A stretch of DNA of 11,121 nt from Candidatus Heimdallarchaeota archaeon (GTDB lineage: Archaea > Asgardarchaeota > Wukongarchaeia > Wukongarchaeales > JBHIFL01): contig JBHIFL010000113.1 of assembly GCA_046761065.1 (NCBI GenBank), forward strand, positions 1 through 11,121. Reading direction: 5' to 3'. The position numbers were made by a program, and so were the translations under genes. The notes under the pieces were generated by a model. The model ran no database searches. It was not told where the DNA came from and saw only the letters and a list, made by a program, of their open reading frames with translations. Below are positions 472 through 10,942 of the stretch, one piece after another (position 1 is the stretch's first letter; each line of letters starts with the position of its first letter).

Positions 472-1330
472 TTGGGTTCACGACAAGTTGTTTATGATTT
501 CATCCAAAAATTATCGAGTAGAGCGCATTACGGGCTGAGAGGCGAAAAGCCACTAGCAATAATTGCCACTCTTGAATATGTTCGAAAGAATAAGTTGTAC
601 GGCAAAACACTACTTGAATTGATCGACAACCACAACAATCCGATTAGAAACGAATTTTTAGAGGTAGCAAATCGATTCGGAAGGCTTAGCAATCCGAACA
701 ATTCCTGGAGCGTAATTACTGGCCCGGATCAAGAGTTACAGAACGCAATTAAGCACCACAGATTGGTTAATCAAGCATTTACGAATTTGACTGCCGATGA
801 GGTCAATGAGCTACTGAAAAGCCTCTATCAACGATTGGAAAAGCTCTCCCGTAGAAGGGAAGACAAACATAATTCATTTAACACCGCAAACACATCCCAG
901 GCCCAGGAAAATCACGCACAGGAAATAGTAGAATACTCTTTCAAGGGTGCAAAAACCATTTTAGGCATGTTACTAAACGAAATAAGGGAAGTCATAAAAT
1001 CTTCCACACGAAGGCATAACGAGATAATTTCCTCCTTTAGGAGAAGAGGTTGGAATACCGAGGTCTCGCTACTAGCTTCATATAGATGCGATGTGTACAA
1101 AGATTATGTCGCCATAGAGGTAGAATCTACAGACAAATCGAGTGTAATTGATGTATTGCACCGGAACTTCTTCAGATTCTGGATCCTTTATAGAATGAAG
1201 AAGATCAAGGCCGCTATTCTAATTACTTCATACAGAAGGGAGAGGTCAACTTCCACAGGGTTTTAGAAGACCTAGAAACCTAAGGGATTATTACGACGTC
1301 CCATTACACGTCATCGGGATAAAAAGCTAA
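472..1330 (+). pseudogene. Two-domain restriction endonuclease-like protein (helical N-terminal domain plus BglII/BstYI/BamHI-fold nuclease), frameshifted near the 3' end (pseudogene or sequencing error); called ORF 472..1266
   Basis: EYSFKGAKTIL, RRGWNTE and CDVYKDYVAIEVE (D207, E216, E218) and AAILIT match the BglII/BstYI-like pattern. The expected tail continues in other frames: GEVNFHRVLEDLET (1239-1280), then DYYDVPLHVIGIKS* (1286-1330). GAGGAG precedes the TTG start. Confidence 0.7.
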
Positions 1331-1459: not shown

Positions 1460-4400
1460 ATGTCGTTCTCCCCGTCTGCCTTGCTTGAGGAGCTGAGAGA
1501 GTCTTCTGACTTTAATGTAATTCATTATCAGCACTTATCGTCTGACGGTGCGGAATGGGGGCGGGATATTACCGAAATCGGGTTGCCTGATGCCTTGGTA
1601 ACATTGCTGCATGAAAGAGGAATTAACCGCCTGTTCAAATTTCAGGATCAGGCTTTACAAAAGATTCTTGCCGGACACGATACGGTCATTCTTGCACCGA
1701 CGGCAAATGGCAAGACGGAAGCCTTTTTGCTGCCCATCCTGTTACAATTAGAGCCCACGGATCCGAATGTCCGGGCACTTCTGATCTATCCAACCAACGC
1801 CTTAGTCAATGATCAATTCCGAAAGATACAGCCGCTCGCGACAAATATTGGCCTACAAGTGGCGTGTTTCATCGGAGATACATCACGAGAAGCACGCGAA
1901 CAGATGTTTCGGAACCCGCCGAACATCCTCTTGACAAACATCGACACGATCCACGCAAATTTGGCCAAGAGTCGCGCAAAAGACCAATTCAAGCAGTTGA
2001 TCCGATCGGTTCGTTTTATCATCTTAGATGAAATCCATATTTACAAGGGAACCTTTGGATCTCACGCGCATATGATTCTCAAACGCCTTAAGCGACTAGC
2101 AGAAGAAGTCCCCGTGACCATTGGTGCAAGTGCTACCCTCTCCAATGCTCTAACGTTCGTTACAAAGTTTTTTGGCCCTAAAACGGAGATTGTTACGTGT
2201 GGGAAACCGCGGGAGTATTCGGTGCATGTGGTCATGGTCTATCCCCAGATCCCTTATCAAGAGGCCATCAATGCGATAGTCAGAAAGCTCGAGGAACAGG
2301 AAGTCAAGACCCTAGTCTTTGCAAATGATCACCGGTCAAGTGAGATCACGGTACGGACGCTGCGTAAGGACGACATAAAGGCGGGACTTCATCGGAGTGG
2401 GTTGTCCATCAAGCGGCGTAAGCAGCTTGAAGGGGCCTTTCGAGAGGGAAGGCTCAAGGTGCTTGTTGCGACACCTACGATGGAATTGGGCGTGGACATA
2501 GGCAGTTTGGATGCCATTGTTTCTCCAGTCATTAACCTAACCCGGACTCAACAACGGATCGGGCGGGCGGGAAGGGAGGGCCAAGAGAGTTTTGCGGCAA
2601 TCATTCTCCGAAAAGCTGATGCTATCTCCGAATTCTACCGCCGGTTCCCCGAGAAATACTTTGAAGATAGAGAGGCCCTATATTTTGAGCCGCACAACGT
2701 CATAATCCTGAAAGATCAGCTCCTAGCAGCCGCGGCAGATGAACCCCTGTACGAGCGGGAAATGGAAGAATATTTACCTCTCTTGGAAGAAATGGTTGGG
2801 GAGGCGCTTCTACAGCGAGGCGAACCACCTGCACGCCGCTATAGTTTGACCCTCCAAGGACGAAAGCGTCTTTTTGGGTATAATATCCGAGGAGGAACCA
2901 AGACAGCACAGATTATCGATGTGAACACAGGAGAACCCCTTGGAACAGGACGAGAATTCCCGATGGCAACCCGCGAACTGCACCCAGGGGCGATCTACTC
3001 TTTGGAGGGTCGTACCTATAAATCCCTCACGTTTGACGTTGAAGCGGGTGAAGCCCAGGTTTACGAAATACAGAGCCAGCATTCGACCACGGCTCTTTAT
3101 TCCGTCCATGCTCAGCTCTTGGAAAGGGGAGAAACGCATAAACTCGAAAACTTGATTCTTGAACATGGACCAGTCTCGGTGACGGAGGTAGTGACTGGGT
3201 ATCTTGATCGGGGACCAGATGGCTCCATCGTGAACCAACACGAAATCACGCCGATCGAGTACACCTTTCAAACGGAAGGCTTGATCTTTCGATTCAGAAC
3301 GCTTGACCGGATTGAAAAACAGAACCGAATGCCCTTGCTCCATACCCTAGAGCACCTAGCGATCCTGAGTGCTGCGCAGATAACCGGGGGAGAACTCCGT
3401 GAATTTGGAGGCTTTTTTGAGAACGGGGAGGAACTCATCCTGTATGAGAGTACACCGGGCGGAAACGGCCTCATTACGTTACTGCTTGGTCGCCTAGAAC
3501 GCTTCTTACAGCGCCTTCATCTCATCCTGCAAGAGTGTGACCATCGGACACAAGACGGGGAGGCTTGCCCGTGCGTTTTCCTCTACTATTGTGGCAAACG
3601 GAACCATGACCTAGATAAAAGCCTTGCACGGGAATTCCTTACGGATTTGCTGGGTCCCCTAATGGATCGAATGGTGGGACCAACAGAAGAACTCCACCCA
3701 ATTGCAGAACCCCTCAGAGCAGAAATACTCGACGTCCTGAAGCAAGGACCTCTTGTCCTTGTTAAGAAGGGGCATTCGGTATTTGCTCATCCCCCAATTT
3801 GGCAGGTTACCTCTCCAACGGCGTTGGAAGAAGCCCTCAGGGAATTTCCCAATGATTGGTGGGAAGCTGGGAAGCTGGACGAGAGTGGGATCTTCACCCC
3901 CACCCTGAAGCCAACTACCCCAGTAGCCCCAATAAAAGAGGCGTTGGGTCTACCTCTTCCTTCTGGTAAGTTCATCGCCGAGGATGGTCATCGGGTGCGT
4001 TCTCGGGGAGAGCTGCTTATCGACAACTGGTTGTATCACCACGGAATTCTCCATGTGTATGAAAAGCTCATTTCTCGTTCTAGGGCAGTAACGATGCGCT
4101 GTGACTTCTATCTCCCTGAATTAGATCGTTACATTGAGTATTGGGGCCTGGAGACCGACGAGTATCAACAACGCCGACAAGAGAAGGAACAGCTTTACCA
4201 GACACTGGGATTAAAGCTCTTCTCGGTAGAGAATACGGATATCTATGATTTGGACGCACATCTCAGCAGCTTACTACACGATCAACGAGCAGCTGTCCCT
4301 AGCTCCTTGCCCGCAAGCCCGCATTCTATGTCAATTAAGGAAACAAAAGACGCCCGAACCAACGAACGGGTGCATCTTCGTGGAAAGAGAATTATTGGTC

Positions 4401-4702
4401 AGATGAGAACTATGCCAGAAGCGAAGATCACTTCCACAGGAAGATCCTACGTCGAGTTGGTTGTGCAAGACGCCACCAGTGCTGCAGTGATCCAGGTTTG
4501 GGGGGATAATTCCATTGAAAATGTCCGCCAAGCCTTAGCTCTCTCTGAGGGCGAAACGGTTGTACTTGACGACCCCATACTTCCTCCAACTCACTATCGT
4601 TCCGCAGAAATTTGGATTCATCAGTCGCAGTCCAAAATACGAAAAATCCACCGTGAGCGAGAATCAGGAACCAGCGTATCCCAGAATAACGTTGGAGTCT
4701 AA
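1460..4702 (+). CDS. YprA/MrfA/Hrq1(SftH)-like DEAD/DEAH-box SF2 helicase with DUF1998 Cys4 domain, fused to a C-terminal PD-(D/E)XK-type nuclease and an OB-fold
   Basis: Q motif LFKFQ; Walker A APTANGKT (aa79-86); Ia YPTNALVNDQ; II DEIH (aa190); III SAT; V ATPTMELGVDIG; VI QRIGRAGR (aa365); ELHPGAIY; HTLEH and YESTPGGNG; C693/C703/C705/C711 followed by NHDLDK. Then DGHRVRSRGELLIDNWL...CDF...YIEYWG, and GRSYVELVVQDATSAAVIQVWG. SD GGAGGT at 1444-1449. Confidence 0.92.
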   Translation: MSFSPSALLEELRESSDFNVIHYQHLSSDGAEWGRDITEIGLPDALVTLLHERGINRLFKFQDQALQKILAGHDTVILAPTANGKTEAFLLPILLQLEPTDPNVRALLIYPTNALVNDQFRKIQPLATNIGLQVACFIGDTSREAREQMFRNPPNILLTNIDTIHANLAKSRAKDQFKQLIRSVRFIILDEIHIYKGTFGSHAHMILKRLKRLAEEVPVTIGASATLSNALTFVTKFFGPKTEIVTCGKPREYSVHVVMVYPQIPYQEAINAIVRKLEEQEVKTLVFANDHRSSEITVRTLRKDDIKAGLHRSGLSIKRRKQLEGAFREGRLKVLVATPTMELGVDIGSLDAIVSPVINLTRTQQRIGRAGREGQESFAAIILRKADAISEFYRRFPEKYFEDREALYFEPHNVIILKDQLLAAAADEPLYEREMEEYLPLLEEMVGEALLQRGEPPARRYSLTLQGRKRLFGYNIRGGTKTAQIIDVNTGEPLGTGREFPMATRELHPGAIYSLEGRTYKSLTFDVEAGEAQVYEIQSQHSTTALYSVHAQLLERGETHKLENLILEHGPVSVTEVVTGYLDRGPDGSIVNQHEITPIEYTFQTEGLIFRFRTLDRIEKQNRMPLLHTLEHLAILSAAQITGGELREFGGFFENGEELILYESTPGGNGLITLLLGRLERFLQRLHLILQECDHRTQDGEACPCVFLYYCGKRNHDLDKSLAREFLTDLLGPLMDRMVGPTEELHPIAEPLRAEILDVLKQGPLVLVKKGHSVFAHPPIWQVTSPTALEEALREFPNDWWEAGKLDESGIFTPTLKPTTPVAPIKEALGLPLPSGKFIAEDGHRVRSRGELLIDNWLYHHGILHVYEKLISRSRAVTMRCDFYLPELDRYIEYWGLETDEYQQRRQEKEQLYQTLGLKLFSVENTDIYDLDAHLSSLLHDQRAAVPSSLPASPHSMSIKETKDARTNERVHLRGKRIIGQMRTMPEAKITSTGRSYVELVVQDATSAAVIQVWGDNSIENVRQALALSEGETVVLDDPILPPTHYRSAEIWIHQSQSKIRKIHRERESGTSVSQNNVGV

Positions 4703-4863: not shown

Positions 4864-5457
4864 ATGCTACAAATTGAGACGCAGTTAGCGGCCTTCTACG
4901 CCAATATCAACACAGCGTGCTTTCGATGCCTTATGGCACCCAAAACGGGCCGTATCAATGCCAAAGGCTACTGGGTGGAACCGAAGAATATCTCAATGTG
5001 GCGCTCCTACGGCTTCATTCCCGTCGATTCCCTAAAAAGAACACGGTATTCGGTTGTCGCCTTCGTGGGCAAAAAGCCAACATGGAACATTGATGAGCCT
5101 GATCCGAAAAAGGGGGGCCGCTTTGATAGGATCAAGCGGGAAATGGTGGAGCTTATGCCCGGGTCGCTTGTTGTTGATTGGGTTTTCTGTCGGGGGGATG
5201 CTAATGCAAAAATCACAGGTGAGGAAATTCGAAACTGCCAAGAGAACCTTCAGAAACTACTGATTATGGCGCGGATCGAGGCCGTCGTAGCAACAGGCAA
5301 AGGGGTTCGCCGCTGGTTTGAGAACTATTGGCCGAAGCCCCGTACATTCGTGCTCGAAACTTGTGAGCATCCATCGGATCCCACGGTAAGCGATAACAAA
5401 AAACGCTTATCCGTGAAGGACATCTGTGCCAAATGGATCGATTTGAAGATACTGTAA
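4864..5457 (+). CDS. Divergent uracil-DNA glycosylase superfamily protein (family 4/5-like, probable 4Fe-4S cluster)
   Basis: C19-x2-C22 and C109-x15-C125; VAFVGKKP at motif A; VVDWVFCR; EEIRNCQENL; VVATG; C-terminal HPS (motif B). AGGAG SD at 4849-4853. Confidence 0.8.
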   Translation: MLQIETQLAAFYANINTACFRCLMAPKTGRINAKGYWVEPKNISMWRSYGFIPVDSLKRTRYSVVAFVGKKPTWNIDEPDPKKGGRFDRIKREMVELMPGSLVVDWVFCRGDANAKITGEEIRNCQENLQKLLIMARIEAVVATGKGVRRWFENYWPKPRTFVLETCEHPSDPTVSDNKKRLSVKDICAKWIDLKIL

Positions 5458-5685: not shown

Positions 5686-5701
5686 GAAAAATATATTAAA
5701 A
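5686..5701 (+). promoter_or_regulatory. Putative archaeal BRE plus TATA box of the YaaA-RelE gene (likely leaderless or short-leader)
   Basis: GAAAAA-TATATTAAA about 30-40 nt upstream of ATG 5731. No SD precedes the ATG. Confidence 0.45.
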
Positions 5702-5730
5702 ATAGTTAATCATATTACTTTTGTGATTAT

Positions 5731-6915
5731 ATGCCAACCAATGAAATGTCATACAAGCCTGACAGTAAAATATTGATCGTAACCATTTGTTCACTAAACA
5801 AGGAAGATGGAGGAAAACCAGAATATAACATGAAGGATTCGATCAGATCCAAATTAGGGGGATGGCAAATCACATATCTACTCAAGACCCGCGAAGTAAT
5901 CCGAAATATGATATTGCAGAACATGATTGCTTACCAAAAAGTTCCGGGTTCAGAGCATCCATTAAATAAAAACCTAGTACGTGGAAAAGATTTCGGGGGC
6001 AAGAGACGTGCCAACTATTTACCCGCCATTGAGAGATATTCTGGACGATTCTACGGCGCGTTAGGAAAAAAGGGCAAAGAAAAATTGCTCCGTTCTCGAC
6101 ATCATGTTCTTATTCTATCTGGGCTTTATGGATTGGTAACCCCAACCGAACCAATTCAGTTATACAGTTGTCCGCTTGAGGAAGATTCAGTGGTTCAAAA
6201 AATCTGGCAGAAAGATAATGGTCTGACAAAAGTCCTTTTGGACTACATTAAAAAGGAAGGAATTGAACGCATCTTTGATCTAACGGGTCGTAAAGACTAT
6301 CGCAACCTTATTAACTGGTCTACTATCTGTAATGAAACAGGGGCAGAAGTTCTCTATTGTTTCTCAGTTATAGGTGCTGGGGAGGATGCATTGGTATCAT
6401 TTGGGAAGAATTTGAAAGAATTTTTGTTGGAAGCCTCAGAAGAAGACCTCCTGGCTATTAAGCCTGAAACAATAAGAAAAAGAGTCCTGTTTCGTACAAT
6501 TCCAGAGCCCCCGAAGGGTCTGCCAACGAAAGAAGAACGCAAGATTATCCGACAAGCGGAACGTGAAAGAAATCAACGTCCGTCATATTTTCTCAAGGAT
6601 TTTCCAAAAGCATTAGAACTAGATCTACTTGGAGATATTAGAGCGGATCAAGAACCACCATCGAAGTATTGGAAGCTTTCCTTTAGTTCCGAGTTTGAGA
6701 AGAATGTTCGTACCTATAAGAATCTTGGAGGGAGGATTCTTAAGGCAATTATGAAGCTTAGCAAAAATCCAACAAAACCAATTGGTAATACTATCATACA
6801 ACTAACCAAACCATATGAGCGTTATTGGCGTATTCGTGTTGGAACGTATCGACTCTTTTATGAGCCGATTAAAGAGACAAAAACAGTATTTCTTATGGCA
6901 TTTGGCCCAAAATAA
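5731..6915 (+). CDS. YaaA/DUF328-like domain fused to a C-terminal RelE/ParE-family toxin domain
   Basis: N-terminal part: LIVTICSLNK, YLPAIERYSGRFY, VLILSGLYGLVTPTEPIQLY and IFDLT (YaaA-like). C-terminal aa313-394: WKLSFSSEFEKNV...RILKAIMKLSKNP...YWRIRVGTYRLFY (RelE-like). Confidence 0.85.
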   Translation: MPTNEMSYKPDSKILIVTICSLNKEDGGKPEYNMKDSIRSKLGGWQITYLLKTREVIRNMILQNMIAYQKVPGSEHPLNKNLVRGKDFGGKRRANYLPAIERYSGRFYGALGKKGKEKLLRSRHHVLILSGLYGLVTPTEPIQLYSCPLEEDSVVQKIWQKDNGLTKVLLDYIKKEGIERIFDLTGRKDYRNLINWSTICNETGAEVLYCFSVIGAGEDALVSFGKNLKEFLLEASEEDLLAIKPETIRKRVLFRTIPEPPKGLPTKEERKIIRQAERERNQRPSYFLKDFPKALELDLLGDIRADQEPPSKYWKLSFSSEFEKNVRTYKNLGGRILKAIMKLSKNPTKPIGNTIIQLTKPYERYWRIRVGTYRLFYEPIKETKTVFLMAFGPK

Positions 6916-6971: not shown

Positions 6972-7024
6972 GCTGAACTAAGTTGGTAAAACTGGATTTA
7001 CGCCAGATAACCAAAGGGTTAGAC
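6972..7024 (+). other. attC-like imperfect hairpin (integron-cassette-type recombination site candidate)
   Basis: GCTGAAC-N5-TGGTAAAACTGG-loop7-CCAGATAACCA-N4-GTTAGAC: AAC...GTT core sites and a perfect GTTRRRY. Read on the minus strand, GTCTAAC (RYYYAAC) contains the stop of the CPBP gene. It is short (53 bp) and has arm mismatches. Confidence 0.35.
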
Positions 7025-7621
7025 ATCACAAAATAGTGTGCAGAAAAGAACTGAACAAAGGGATGCCATAAAAATGATCACTATAAAGTATTGCAATCCA
7101 AAGCCAGGAGTATAGTAATGTGTACTGGCAAAGACGAGATTAGCTATGAGAAAATGGGCAATTGCAAGAGGGACTGAAACACCTCTGATCACTCTTTGAG
7201 CAAAACAAAGACGTTTTGCAGAAACTTGTAGTACCCAGTAAGGGAGTAATACCCGGCACATAAATTCTTCTGTGAGTGGAGCAAAGACCACAGTTGCCAA
7301 CTTATCTTTATTTTCTTCTATCATTAACGATAGGAAAATGTATAACCCAAGTATTATTACAGCAATAATTGTCACAGTTCGGTTTTTATTTAATTTCCAA
7401 CTTTTAGGACGAATAAAGTCAGCAAATATACTTCGTTTCTTGTATACCGTATAAAATCCGAGAAGGAGGGATCCAAAGTAAAACACAACAAGACCTGGAT
7501 GAGATAAAATAAATTCTCTATTTCTAGGGATTGTCAATAGGCAGAGTAAAGAAATGAAAAACGCGAGAAACGCTAGAAACGAGAAATGATGGTCTTTGAG
7601 TTCATCAAACGCCTTTTTCAA
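7019..7621 (-). CDS. CPBP family (CAAX protease/Abi) intramembrane metalloprotease, lacking the last HxxxN motif
   Basis: Multiple hydrophobic segments; APLTEEFMCR (EExxxR); VFASTH (FxxxH). TTG start with GAAGGGA upstream. The ORF ends before any HxxxN motif. Confidence 0.8.
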   Translation of the reverse strand: MKKAFDELKDHHFSFLAFLAFFISLLCLLTIPRNREFILSHPGLVVFYFGSLLLGFYTVYKKRSIFADFIRPKSWKLNKNRTVTIIAVIILGLYIFLSLMIEENKDKLATVVFAPLTEEFMCRVLLPYWVLQVSAKRLCFAQRVIRGVSVPLAIAHFLIANLVFASTHYYTPGFGLQYFIVIIFMASLCSVLFCTLFCDV

Positions 7622-7717: not shown

Positions 7718-8196
7718 GAATTGCGAATGAAATAAGGAATTTTCTGGGTTGGGTGAAGGATCGGGCACATCCGGACGGTCGAGCTTGGGAGGTGGCGGTA
7801 CTCACCTTTTACAGGGGACAAGAGCGGCTCTTGAGACAGAAGGTAGCAAGTGTATTGAATACCTATCCTCGGAGAGTGTTCAGATACTGGACGGGTGGAA
7901 AAGATCGTGTGCGCATAGAAGTTTGCACCGTTGATCGGTTTCAAGGTCATGAAGCCGATTATGTGATGCTTTCTCTTGTTCGAACAAACGCCGTGGGATT
8001 CTTGGACAGCCCAAATCGGCTAAATGTTGCATTAACCCGTGCACGTTACCAGTTAATGATATTTGGGCATCGTGCATTTTTCCAGAGAAAATATATGAGA
8101 GACCGTGCGAGGTTTTTGTACGATTTGGCTTGTGACGAAGTAGGGACACCAACCCATAGGCCCTATGCAACGAAAAAACATCGCAAACGTTCTTAG
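7714..8196 (+). pseudogene. C-terminal remnant (AAA_12 / RecA2 domain) of a UPF1/DNA2/NAM7-like SF1 helicase, 5'-truncated; called ORF 7753..8196
   Basis: VAVLTFYRGQ, CTVDRFQGHEADYVMLSLVR, GFLDSPNRLNVALTRAR (SF1 motifs IV-VI). No Walker A/B. The frame is open back to TGA 7711-7713 (TRIANEIRNFLGW), and no SD precedes GTG 7753. Confidence 0.85.
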
Positions 8197-8216
8197 CAAA
8201 AACGTGTAGGTGGAAA

Positions 8217-9425
8217 ATGGTGGATTACCCTCCGATACAGCTCAAACGGAAGGTAAAAGTTCAATGCCTTGATGTCTCGGCGATTATTTCTCGACCGGAT
8301 TCAAGAGAAGACCTCCTTATAGTGTTACGTTTTGGCGACGAAATGCTAAAAAGGAGTTCGGAATTCTCTCCAAGAACGGTTGCAACCAAGCTATTACCAG
8401 ACTTTCCAATTAATGCCGGTCAAAGACTCTTGCGACGTCTTGAAGACCTTGATCTTGTAACGCGAGCAAATGGATCTAGCGGGGAAACTTTCCTTCCTTG
8501 GGAAGACACAATGTATGTGTTGACACCAAAGGGGGAAGAAGCAATTAAAGAAAACCGCATATTCCTGCCTGAGCGGCATGAAATTCAGGTACGCTATATT
8601 GAAGACGTATTATTCCCTCAACGTGTAATCGGGATGCAATTAATAACCGAATCTTTAGCGGACGTGATCAGGGAAGATAGAGGCGATGAAGAAAGTCCAT
8701 CTGAGCAAGAAAGAGAAAAAGACATTTTTTACATACCTGAAACGCTGAAAGAAATCCAGGGTCGCGAAATCACGATATTGGAAGGGGAGAAACCCTATGT
8801 AGGACCTATAACCTTTGAGAAAATCGAAGAAAAGGCGAAATATCGTACCATTGAGCAACAAGCGATCATTACCCTAGTTTATGAGAGATGGAGAGAGCCA
8901 ATCCTTACCTTACAGGTGGGCCAACAGACCCATCTCTTGCCAGCGCCAAAAGTCCCGTATAGGGAGCTTTTTCGTTCTCTTCTACACCAGGAAGCCTTAT
9001 CATGGAATGACGAGATTGAAGCCGTCGAATGTCAGTATGATGAGCTAATTGATGAGGAGAAGCGAAACTTCAAGCGTGATTTTATGGTTAAGATGCCCCA
9101 ATTTAACGAACTGGGGGTTTTTGAACCGACTGTGTTAAGAGGAGTCGCTATTGCTCCAAAAACAAAGAATGATGCAGAACTCTGGGCGGACTTTCTGGTG
9201 AGGGAGGCCGTCCGAGATTATACGACAGAAAACGAGTATGCGAGGATCGTTGACAAAGTTAGGGAAAATTTCCACCGGTGGGAGAATCTCCGAATTCAAT
9301 CGATAGAAGAACTCATACAAGAAGAAAAACGAACCTTGAACAGGGATGGCGTGTTTTCCTCCCGATATTGGTTCTTGCAAACCCCTCAGGATCTACAAAT
9401 AGTGTTAAAGGAGGAGAAAGCTTGA
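8217..9425 (+). CDS. Uncharacterised acidic 402-aa protein with a probable N-terminal winged helix; middle gene of the helicase-X-PLD unit
   Basis: Long ORF with AGGTGG SD, 20 nt after the helicase stop. RLLRRLEDLDLV...YVLTPKGEEAI is wHTH-like. Its stop overlaps the next start. Confidence 0.8.
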   Translation: MVDYPPIQLKRKVKVQCLDVSAIISRPDSREDLLIVLRFGDEMLKRSSEFSPRTVATKLLPDFPINAGQRLLRRLEDLDLVTRANGSSGETFLPWEDTMYVLTPKGEEAIKENRIFLPERHEIQVRYIEDVLFPQRVIGMQLITESLADVIREDRGDEESPSEQEREKDIFYIPETLKEIQGREITILEGEKPYVGPITFEKIEEKAKYRTIEQQAIITLVYERWREPILTLQVGQQTHLLPAPKVPYRELFRSLLHQEALSWNDEIEAVECQYDELIDEEKRNFKRDFMVKMPQFNELGVFEPTVLRGVAIAPKTKNDAELWADFLVREAVRDYTTENEYARIVDKVRENFHRWENLRIQSIEELIQEEKRTLNRDGVFSSRYWFLQTPQDLQIVLKEEKA

Positions 9426-10942
9426 TCTTCGAGGAAACCACAAAAGAAGTGGTCCATGATTATTCTGAGGATATCATCGAAAATGTCTGGTCTTTGCGAA
9501 GCCGAATAGGTTCTTCAACGCAGGTCAAAGAAAGTGAAGGAGATGGAGTGTGGTCTACAGGGGATCGGGGGGTATTTCGTAGCGTCCTCGTTTCAGCGAT
9601 TGGAAGAGCTCATGAAGTCGTCTGCATATCATCATTTCTTATGGGGGAAGAAGAGATAGAGCGGGCATTGCTCAGCGCAGTTGCTCGTGGCGTGCGAGTT
9701 TATATTCTTTCCGTACCTGATGTCATCTTAGATCGTGAAGAAGCAATAATGGGCGAAGAAGAGAGAGTAGACGAGCGGGCAGAAGAGTATAAAGCATTTT
9801 TAAACCACATAGCAGGAAAAATGTTGTTAAGGGCGGCAAGTCATTTCCACAGTAAATTCCTTTTGGTTGACCTGAAGGACTCAAGTCACATGGAGGGATA
9901 CCTAAGCACTGCTAATTTCAATAAGGCTCTTGTCGAAGGTGTAGAACTTGGAGTTCGCTTGACACCATCAGAGATTCATGGTGTTTTCCAGCAGTTTGTG
10001 CGTGGGTTCTGGGTCGAGGCTTCTCAAGAACTCCGTCATAAAGGGCGATTGAGCCCTGTATCTTCCCATCCAAAGGATCTAGCGATCCCTACAAAGGTTG
10101 ACGGGGTCCTGACAACCATTGCAAGCCGTAATTCAGACATCAAGACACTCCAAGAGGGGATAGTAGAATTTTTAGAACAGACGGAAGGCCCAGTTTACCT
10201 TTCGATGTTTGGGTTTGAAGAAGGGCATGCGGTATTGAGCGCGATCACAAACCACGCGAAGGAACGGGAGATTACCGTGCTTACGCGGCTTCGGCCAAGT
10301 TTTCGTCAAATTCGCGCTCTTAATGAGCTTGTGGATGCAGGAGTAACTATCCTTGGACATGAACGCCTTCATGCCAAGGCGATTGTAAGCAAAATGCAGG
10401 GGGAACCTGTTGCGCTGGTAATGACAGCCAATCTTCAATCGCGAGGAATGGATGAGGGATATGAAACCGGGGTTTTATTAAGAGGAAGGCGAGCCCAAAG
10501 AGTGGAAGAGATATTGAATCAGTGGACAGAAGAATTTCCATGGATCTTTCAAGGAGAAGCGAAACTTGGTGAGCTTCTGGGGCCCATATGGCTTAGTATT
10601 GAAAATAACTTTACGAAGACAGCAGTTGAGGAAGAGAAAACGATCGATGGAGGAGTTATACTCATTAAGTCGCTCGACATAGATCCAGTTAAAATGATTC
10701 CAGAAAGAAGAACGAGGTCAAAAGACGAATTCTATCACAGGGTCAAGGTGACTTACCACTTAAAGCCTCCCTTAGTACCGGCAATGACTAAACGAATAAA
10801 TGATGACGTATCTCCACTTCCGCTGTATAAAACAGATAAAAACACGTTTATAGCAGTAAAGAATGAAAAAGAGCTTCAATCTGCGATTTGGTTAAAAGAC
10901 CAAAGATATCCTAATGCCCTGATAGTAGTTGAAGGTAAGTAA
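9422..10942 (+). CDS. Phospholipase D-like nuclease with two HKD domains (506 aa from TTG 9422)
   Basis: HSKFLLVD (9848-9871) with STANF and ELGV; HAKAIVSK (10370-10393) with MTANL and ETGV. No signal peptide or TM segment is evident. Start reassigned to TTG 9422 because AAGGAGGAG lies at 9408-9416 and TTGA overlaps the upstream stop. Confidence 0.9.
   Translation: MIFEETTKEVVHDYSEDIIENVWSLRSRIGSSTQVKESEGDGVWSTGDRGVFRSVLVSAIGRAHEVVCISSFLMGEEEIERALLSAVARGVRVYILSVPDVILDREEAIMGEEERVDERAEEYKAFLNHIAGKMLLRAASHFHSKFLLVDLKDSSHMEGYLSTANFNKALVEGVELGVRLTPSEIHGVFQQFVRGFWVEASQELRHKGRLSPVSSHPKDLAIPTKVDGVLTTIASRNSDIKTLQEGIVEFLEQTEGPVYLSMFGFEEGHAVLSAITNHAKEREITVLTRLRPSFRQIRALNELVDAGVTILGHERLHAKAIVSKMQGEPVALVMTANLQSRGMDEGYETGVLLRGRRAQRVEEILNQWTEEFPWIFQGEAKLGELLGPIWLSIENNFTKTAVEEEKTIDGGVILIKSLDIDPVKMIPERRTRSKDEFYHRVKVTYHLKPPLVPAMTKRINDDVSPLPLYKTDKNTFIAVKNEKELQSAIWLKDQRYPNALIVVEGK

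What the first reader, a model, noticed from the sequence alone, without database searches (positions are those of the whole stretch)
5731..6915. YaaA/DUF328-like domain fused to a RelE toxin, with no antitoxin gene
Seen: one uninterrupted ORF joining a YaaA-like domain, a charged Pro-rich linker and an 82-aa RelE/ParE domain. It has its own promoter-like element and no small upstream antitoxin ORF. Known: YaaA binds DNA; DpdC of the 7-deazaguanine DNA-modification system carries a DUF328/YaaA-like domain; RelE proteins are ribosome-dependent mRNases normally paired with RelB. Inference: a single-protein sensor-effector (abortive-infection-like) in which recognition of damaged, branched or modified DNA releases a translation toxin. 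This is one of the best candidates here for an undescribed system.
Basis: partly seen in the sequence, partly recalled or inferred. Interest (0 to 1): 0.75.

Follow-up and report, generated by a model that had tools for sequence, protein, structure and literature searches.

The report
YaaA-like sensor fused to RelE toxin
This archaeal gene joins a probable DNA-reading domain to a translation-blocking toxin, and relatives attach the same domain to many other toxins, suggesting an undescribed family of one-protein antiviral alarms, although this particular copy may be weakened.

Summary
The 394-aa ORF (5731-6915, +) is real: a YaaA/DUF6884-fold domain (aa 10-262), a partly helical linker and a RelE domain (aa 312-394). 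It recurs in an independent assembly, and 60 other 90%-identity clusters from archaea and bacteria share the fusion. No locus examined has an antitoxin-like neighbour. The same N-domain carries swapped partners elsewhere: HEPN types, Schlafen/AlbA_2, NERD, TIR, PIN-like and an unassigned domain, a repertoire like that of CARF sensors. About a third of independent loci lie beside a second DUF6884/YaaA-fold gene, often the PADLOC candidate PDC-M57. Best reading: a mobile one-protein sensor-effector that detects abnormal DNA and halts translation; trigger, activation and defence are inferred, not shown. The host bin is an Asgard archaeon; 1 of 400 genomes of the phylum has the gene. No PADLOC model or paper was found. 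This scan noted the family twice before on other DNA (e1-3062876, e1-5261430).

The parts
5731..6915 (+). Fusion gene, 394 aa: YaaA/DUF6884-fold domain + linker + RelE domain
   Evidence: same ORF in independent contig
5686..5715 (+). A/T-rich archaeal BRE/TATA-like promoter candidate
   Evidence: conserved upstream of the nearest relative L069 while DNA further upstream does not align; function inferred
5758..6516 (+). YaaA/DUF6884-fold putative sensor domain (aa 10-262)
   Evidence: VIA Z 15.8 to YaaA 5caj; hhalign 96.5% to DUF6884; near-invariant R54, R102, G105, Y133, G134, Q143, W159, W196 in 146 representatives
5788..5802 (+). C-x3-K motif (C20..K24), as in DUF6884 and the ArcS catalytic motif
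   Evidence: C in 105, K in 132 of 139 aligned representatives; motif described in PMC11701544 and PMC5699537
6517..6663 (+). Linker (aa 263-311), charged, with two predicted helices; candidate cis-inhibitor (inferred)
   Evidence: consensus
6664..6915 (+). RelE domain (aa 312-394): keeps R367, R369, R374 (E. coli K52, K54, R61 equivalents), ends at K394 (R81 position), lacks the Y87-equivalent tail
4864..5457 (+). Upstream uracil-DNA-glycosylase-superfamily gene; possible but unconserved partner
   Evidence: Pfam UDG E 0.017; Atlas features 0.94, TM 0.66; not beside the gene in any other locus

Best explanation
The gene belongs to a mobile family of one-protein sensor-effector defence genes. 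SHOWN: a YaaA/DUF6884-fold domain is fused to RelE with no antitoxin gene, the same domain is repeatedly re-fused to other RNase, DNase and TIR effectors, and the gene moves as a single unit. INFERRED: the N-domain binds an abnormal DNA structure made during infection (abasic or base-modified sites are the best guess); binding relieves an inhibition held by the N-domain or linker; RelE then cuts mRNA in the ribosomal A site, stopping translation and virus production. This copy has lost the catalytic tail tyrosine and is about as likely as not to be attenuated or decaying.
For: 60 other two-domain clusters across archaea and bacteria; 259 clusters at 50% identity with E<1e-30, about 130 of the best 150 carrying an extra domain. 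Partners: Swt1-like and DUF4145/HepT-like HEPN (weak Pfam hits), AlbA_2 (E 5e-11), NERD (1e-9), TIR (6e-12), PIN-like (1e-3). Tree of 159 N-domains needs 24 effector changes where 12 is the minimum; RelE alone 10, 5 forced by well supported branches. One pair has 96% identical N-domains but 45% identical RelE ends; others have 77-79% identical N-domains and unrelated ends. RelE catalytic residues kept family-wide: R61-equivalent 81/81, K54-equivalent 81/81 R or K, R81-equivalent R or K in 74, Y87-equivalent aromatic in at least 68; dN/dS 0.05-0.16 on RelE in 8 of 9 pairs. No acidic small co-oriented ORF of 55 aa or more that looks like an antitoxin beside any locus. 12 of 36 independent locus groups have a DUF6884 or second YaaA-fold gene within 2.5 kb, against 11 strong DUF6884 hits in 21 genomes of 1.3-7.9 Mb, 4 of them adjacent; several are PDC-M57. 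Other neighbours: type I RM, GmrSD, NucS, GIY-YIG, AGOG-like glycosylases, TIR. B. subtilis YfjM (DUF6884) is enriched on abasic and ribonucleotide lesions (PMC10220248). Precedent for sensor-RelE without antitoxin: Cami1 (PMC11229360).
Against: No experiment. No PADLOC model matches. Two thirds of loci have no second YaaA-fold gene, and some copies sit among housekeeping genes, for example inside an NADH dehydrogenase operon, which fits a selfish addiction module equally well. The ligand is inferred from distant relatives. This copy lacks the Y87-equivalent; in E. coli RelE Y87A and R81A lower cleavage and R81A/Y87F nearly abolishes it (PMC2807027). In its three-member clade one member has a frameshift in RelE and one has lost RelE; dN/dS is 0.40-0.65 on the N-domain and 1.2 (0.6-2.7) on RelE.
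Confidence: 0.58

Rival explanations
1. Fused toxin-antitoxin (addiction or stress) module: the N-domain and linker act as a covalent antitoxin and autorepressor, and the toxin is released by proteolysis or stress, not by sensing invader DNA.
For: No separate antitoxin; solo insertions in housekeeping regions; patchy distribution, 1 of 400 phylum genomes; YaaA is a DNA-binding stress protein (PMC11701544).
Against: One conserved domain is unlikely to neutralise RelE, HEPN, Schlafen, NERD and TIR folds directly; the conserved pocket residues look like a ligand site; enrichment beside PDC-M57 and restriction genes.
Confidence: 0.15
2. The N-domain is an active enzyme, like DpdC or ArcS, that uses its C-x3-K pocket to modify or covalently trap 7-deazaguanine-type bases in DNA; the fused toxin is a back-up that fires when the enzyme is engaged or inhibited.
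For: C-x3-K motif matches the ArcS motif PC-X3-KPY (PMC5699537); model aligns to the ArcS-like AF0587 (Z 7.3, 127 aa); DpdC is a DUF328 protein acting on preQ0-DNA; archaeal viruses carry 7-deazaguanines.
Against: Profile match to ArcS is weak (hhalign 2.9%); the Cys is replaced by G or D in about a fifth of members; no transglycosylase gene among annotated neighbours; no PADLOC DpdC hit.
Confidence: 0.12
3. The N-domain senses a diffusible nucleotide messenger or a small excision product (CARF/SAVED-like) made in trans, not DNA itself.
For: The effector repertoire parallels that of CARF proteins; glycosylase-like and TIR neighbours could make such products.
Against: No cyclase, Cas10 or CBASS gene among annotated neighbours; the fold is YaaA, not CARF (Cami1 match Z 5.8 at rmsd 19, driven by RelE); known fold members act on nucleic acid polymers.
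Confidence: 0.08
4. The RelE domain is a harmless ribosome-binding or vestigial appendage throughout the family, and the protein works in DNA repair or stress response.
For: This copy is tail-less and under relaxed selection; YaaA and YfjM are linked to DNA damage.
Against: Catalytic arginines and tyrosine are conserved with dN/dS near 0.1 in the rest of the family; partners elsewhere are also toxin-type domains.
Confidence: 0.07

Closest known systems
Cami1 (CARF-RelE type III CRISPR effector)
   Same: Single chain, Rossmann-like sensor plus RelE, no antitoxin gene; cuts A-site mRNA when activated (PMC11229360).
   Different: Sensor here has the YaaA fold, not CARF; no CRISPR or Cas10 neighbours seen; ligand unknown.
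Type II RelBE toxin-antitoxin systems
   Same: C-terminal domain has the RelE fold and the K52/K54/R61/R81/Y87-type active site in most members.
   Different: No RelB gene; RelE is fused to a 250-aa domain; this copy lacks the Y87 tail.
E. coli YaaA (DUF328, PF03883)
   Same: Same fold (Z 15.8) and SGLYG motif.
   Different: 15-18% identity; far below every NCBIfam YaaA cut-off; nearly always fused to an effector; patchy and mobile.
DUF6884 / YfjM and PADLOC candidate PDC-M57
   Same: Homologous core (hhalign 96.5%) with C-x3-K and LS-x-x-YG motifs; frequent neighbour; the host bin carries a PDC-M57-like pair on another contig.
   Different: N-domain is about 110 aa longer, does not match PDC-M57A, and carries its own effector.
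DpdC and ArcS (7-deazaguanine-modifying enzymes)
   Same: DUF328-related fold; C-x3-K motif shared with ArcS.
   Different: No dpdA/dpdB context, no DpdC model hit, weak profile match to ArcS; enzyme activity untested.
HEC-07 (Payne et al., bioRxiv 10.1101/2024.01.29.577857)
   Same: Single-gene multidomain defence candidate ending in a RelE domain.
   Different: Unrelated N-terminal domains (AdoMetDC-like, thioredoxin-like); His-type active site.

Membership tests
RelE superfamily toxin domain | RelE fold | tested here: met
   Z 9-10, rmsd about 2 A over 78-83 aa; profile hits RelE structures to E 1.6e-9
RelE superfamily toxin domain | Basic catalytic residues (K52, K54, R61 equivalents) | tested here: met
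   R367, R369, R374; R61-equivalent in 81/81
RelE superfamily toxin domain | R81 and Y87 equivalents with C-terminal helix | tested here: not met
   This copy stops at K394 with no tyrosine; met in most relatives
RelE superfamily toxin domain | Ribosome-dependent mRNA cleavage and toxicity | not testable with these tools
   needs experiment
Type II RelBE system | Adjacent small antitoxin gene in an operon | tested here: not met
   none here or at the other loci scanned for ORFs of 55-130 aa; an antitoxin in trans is not excluded (two other RelE-like genes in the bin)
YaaA (DUF328) proper | YaaA fold | tested here: met
YaaA (DUF328) proper | Equivalog score; stand-alone protein | tested here: not met
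   22.6 bits against cut-offs of 204-392; fused
YaaA (DUF328) proper | DNA binding | not testable with these tools
   inferred from fold only
DUF6884 | C-x3-K and LS-x-x-x-G motifs | tested here: met
DUF6884 | Pfam gathering score | tested here: not met
   18.3 bits against 30
Dpd system (DpdC) | Match to DpdC models and dpdA/dpdB neighbourhood | tested here: not met
   no PADLOC hit; no such neighbour in the window or in Pfam-annotated loci
Cami1 | CARF sensor domain and type III CRISPR context | tested here: not met
   N-domain is YaaA-fold; no CARF hit in Pfam or PADLOC
PDC-M57 | M57A + M57B gene pair | tested here: not met
   absent from the window; present beside some relatives and on contig C214 of the bin
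Abortive-infection sensor-effector | Infection-triggered growth arrest that protects the population | not testable with these tools
   needs phage or virus challenge

The most novel reading that the evidence does not exclude
The YaaA/DUF6884 fold is an unrecognised immune receptor for base-modified or abasic DNA, used like CARF to switch on at least six kinds of effector. It would give cells a way to detect viruses by the very modifications (such as 7-deazaguanines) that hide them from restriction, or by the lesions that defence glycosylases leave.
Probability: 0.3. Interest if true: 0.85.

Novelty: new variant of a known kind. Interest (0 to 1): 0.66.

Why it matters
If true, it adds a new sensor domain to the short list that drives prokaryotic abortive immunity, with a ready-made set of natural effector swaps for testing it. 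It would also give a testable handle on what YaaA-fold proteins recognise, which is still unclear for YaaA and YfjM. The family spans archaea and bacteria and is not modelled in PADLOC-DB 2.0.

Tried and rejected
Lost stop or misassembly: rejected. A recent frameshift explaining the short C-terminus: rejected, because the nearest relative's RelE frame stops at the same position and an unrelated member, P0120, does too. The 65-aa upstream ORF as antitoxin: basic and not conserved. Sigma-70 promoter scan: chance level. Homodimer prediction: no verdict, evidence neither way. Intramolecular occlusion could not be examined because model coordinates are not returned. Viral contigs: no relative found. 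PADLOC: no match. Fold search of the unassigned partner domain: no clear match in Pfam, PDB or Atlas. Profile link to ArcS: weak. Seven literature searches found no paper on the fusion; the main YaaA paper was not held, and subscription papers are not covered. The upstream UDG-like gene as fixed partner: not conserved. No mobile-element repeats around the gene.

Full report
Observation. The window holds one ORF at 5731-6915 (+), 394 aa. Pfam finds YaaA (aa 79-159, E 1.4e-9) and ParE/RelE (aa 322-391, E 2.1e-5), both over their cut-offs, and DUF6884 weakly. An AlphaFold2 model from 57 homologues has mean pLDDT 91.8. It matches E. coli YaaA (Z 15.8 over 224 aa) and RelE/YoeB toxins (Z about 10 over aa 311-394). 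A separately assembled Logan contig is 99.7% identical over 6776 nt and has the same ORF and stop codon. The only small co-oriented ORF upstream is basic and not conserved. An A/T-rich element at 5686-5715 is conserved in the nearest relative and looks like an archaeal BRE/TATA promoter.

Host. The window is a whole contig of a 4.4-Mb bin with an archaeal 16S primer site, two actins and a profilin, so an Asgard archaeon. The bin has 8.2% contamination and the contig's tetranucleotide profile is fifth lowest of 43 similar-sized contigs, so the assignment is likely but not certain. Only this genome among 400 of the phylum has the gene, which points to horizontal gain.

The fusion is a family. 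Of 89 homologues, 60 besides the query carry both domains. They come from archaea (Bathyarchaeia, Pacearchaeota) and bacteria (alpha- and gammaproteobacterial MAGs). A profile of the N-domain finds 259 clusters at 50% identity with E below 1e-30, and about 130 of the best 150 carry an extra domain.

Effector swapping. The partner domains are RelE, a divergent RelE-like group, several HEPN-like groups, Schlafen/AlbA_2, NERD, TIR, a PIN-like domain and two unassigned domains. The HEPN calls rest on weak Pfam hits (Swt1-like, DUF4145, HepT-like) or only on an R-x4-H motif. On a tree of 159 N-domains the effector label changes at least 24 times where 12 is the minimum, and RelE alone needs 10 changes, 5 of them forced by well supported branches. 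P0028 and P0032 have 96% identical N-domains but 45% identical RelE ends; P0122 shares 77-79% of its N-domain with RelE members yet ends in an unrelated domain. By established knowledge this is the pattern of a modular sensor such as CARF.

The RelE domain looks active in the family. The equivalents of E. coli R61 and K54 are kept in 81 of 81 members, R81 in 74 (R or K) and the Y87 aromatic in at least 68 (roles from PMC2807027). dN/dS on the domain is 0.05-0.16 in 8 of 9 pairs. No locus scanned has an acidic small ORF of antitoxin type beside the gene, so control is probably in cis.

This copy may not be. It ends at K394, the R81 position, and has no Y87 equivalent or tail. The nearest relative (79% DNA identity) stops at the same place in its RelE frame, so the short end is older than this copy, but that relative also has a frameshift inside RelE. 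The third member of the clade has no RelE and a PIN-like domain at its N-terminus. In this clade dN/dS is 0.40-0.65 on the N-domain and 1.2 (bootstrap 0.6-2.7, only 66 codons) on RelE. Relaxed selection is the simplest reading; diversifying selection is not excluded. I put the chance that this copy is weak or inactive at about one half.

What the sensor may read. The N-domain is homologous to DUF6884 (hhalign 96.5%) and keeps its C-x3-K and LS-x-x-YG motifs; C20 is present in 105 and K24 in 132 of 139 aligned members. Pfam's curators regard these motifs as a possible active site and cite the DUF6884 protein YfjM as a binder of DNA lesions (PMC11701544); YfjM was enriched on abasic and ribonucleotide lesions (PMC10220248). 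The same C-x3-K opens the ArcS motif, the model aligns to the ArcS-like AF0587 at Z 7.3, and DpdC, a DUF328 protein, converts preQ0-DNA to ADG-DNA. The ArcS profile match is weak, so 7-deazaguanine sensing is a lead only.

Neighbourhood. There is no obligatory partner; one copy sits inside an NADH dehydrogenase operon. But 12 of 36 independent locus groups have a DUF6884 or second YaaA-fold gene within 2.5 kb (after removing two loci where the second hit is a piece of the same broken gene). In 21 host genomes there are 11 strong DUF6884 hits, 4 of them adjacent to the fusion, and in three genomes the only strong hit is the adjacent one. Several are the PADLOC candidate PDC-M57. Glycosylase-like genes, GIY-YIG, NucS, GmrSD, type I RM and TIR genes also recur. 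In the window the upstream gene is of the UDG superfamily, to which the antiviral glycosylase Brig1 belongs (PMC11078745), but this pairing is not conserved. The bin has a PDC-M57-like pair and a DUF6884 plus glycosylase-like pair on other contigs.

Mechanism. Shown: architecture, absence of an adjacent antitoxin, effector swapping, conserved catalytic residues in the family, enrichment beside DNA-reading defence candidates. Inferred: DNA-lesion or modified-base binding, relief of cis-inhibition, A-site mRNA cleavage, abortive infection. Confidence in this reading for the family is 0.58; rivals are a fused addiction module (0.15), an active deazaguanine-type enzyme with back-up toxin (0.12), a small-molecule sensor (0.08) and a non-toxic repair protein (0.07).

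Known systems and novelty. It works most like Cami1 (CARF-RelE) but fails membership in Cami1, RelBE, YaaA proper, Dpd and PDC-M57. PADLOC has no model for it and seven literature searches found no description, with the limit that subscription papers are not covered. The ESM Atlas holds an automatically named YaaA-AlbA_2 cluster. This scan noted RelE and HEPN members twice on other genomes; those notes are leads, not independent support. Verdict: a new variant of the one-protein sensor-effector kind, interest 0.66, with the advice to test intact-tailed relatives alongside this copy.

Noticed in passing
P0184:295-405 and 17 relatives (alignment A3): An unassigned domain of about 110 aa fused to the same N-domain; confidently modelled (pLDDT 96-98) but without a clear Pfam, PDB or Atlas match. 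Candidate new effector.
   Followed up: partly
window 7753-10942 (+): C-terminal fragment of a superfamily 1 helicase (AAA_12; Mokosh MkoA-like) with no N-terminal part, followed by a 402-aa gene and a PLD gene (DrmC/MkoB-like): probably a broken helicase-PLD defence operon.
   Followed up: partly
window 1460-4702 (+): MrfA-like DEAD helicase with Zn-binding domain and a C-terminal PD-(D/E)XK-like region matching PDC-S69.
   Followed up: no
window 4864-5457 (+): Divergent UDG-superfamily gene in a defence island; candidate antiviral glycosylase.
   Followed up: partly
window 472-1266 (+) and 7019-7621 (-): BglII-like restriction-fold gene (E 7e-4) and an Rce1-like CAAX protease gene, both A/T-rich.
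   Followed up: no
G000:C214:1-1978 (L067) and G000:C78:4895-8233 (L068): The host bin has a PDC-M57-like pair and a DUF6884 gene beside a glycosylase-like gene on other contigs.
   Followed up: partly
L063:439-3453: An AGOG glycosylase-YaaA fusion lies directly upstream of a YaaA-HEPN fusion.
   Followed up: no
L074:6001-7188: A YaaA-like-RelE gene inserted in the middle of an NADH dehydrogenase operon.
   Followed up: no
L061:5258-10127: Methanospirillum YaaA-TIR gene flanked by another TIR gene and an HD-CE gene; a cultured host for testing.
   Followed up: no
L069:777-1925: Nearest relative has a frameshift inside the RelE domain and a 993-aa DUF6884-containing gene downstream.
   Followed up: yes
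L057:2213-4423: N-domain breaks off and runs in frame into an unrelated 500-aa sequence, possibly a deletion fusion.
   Followed up: no
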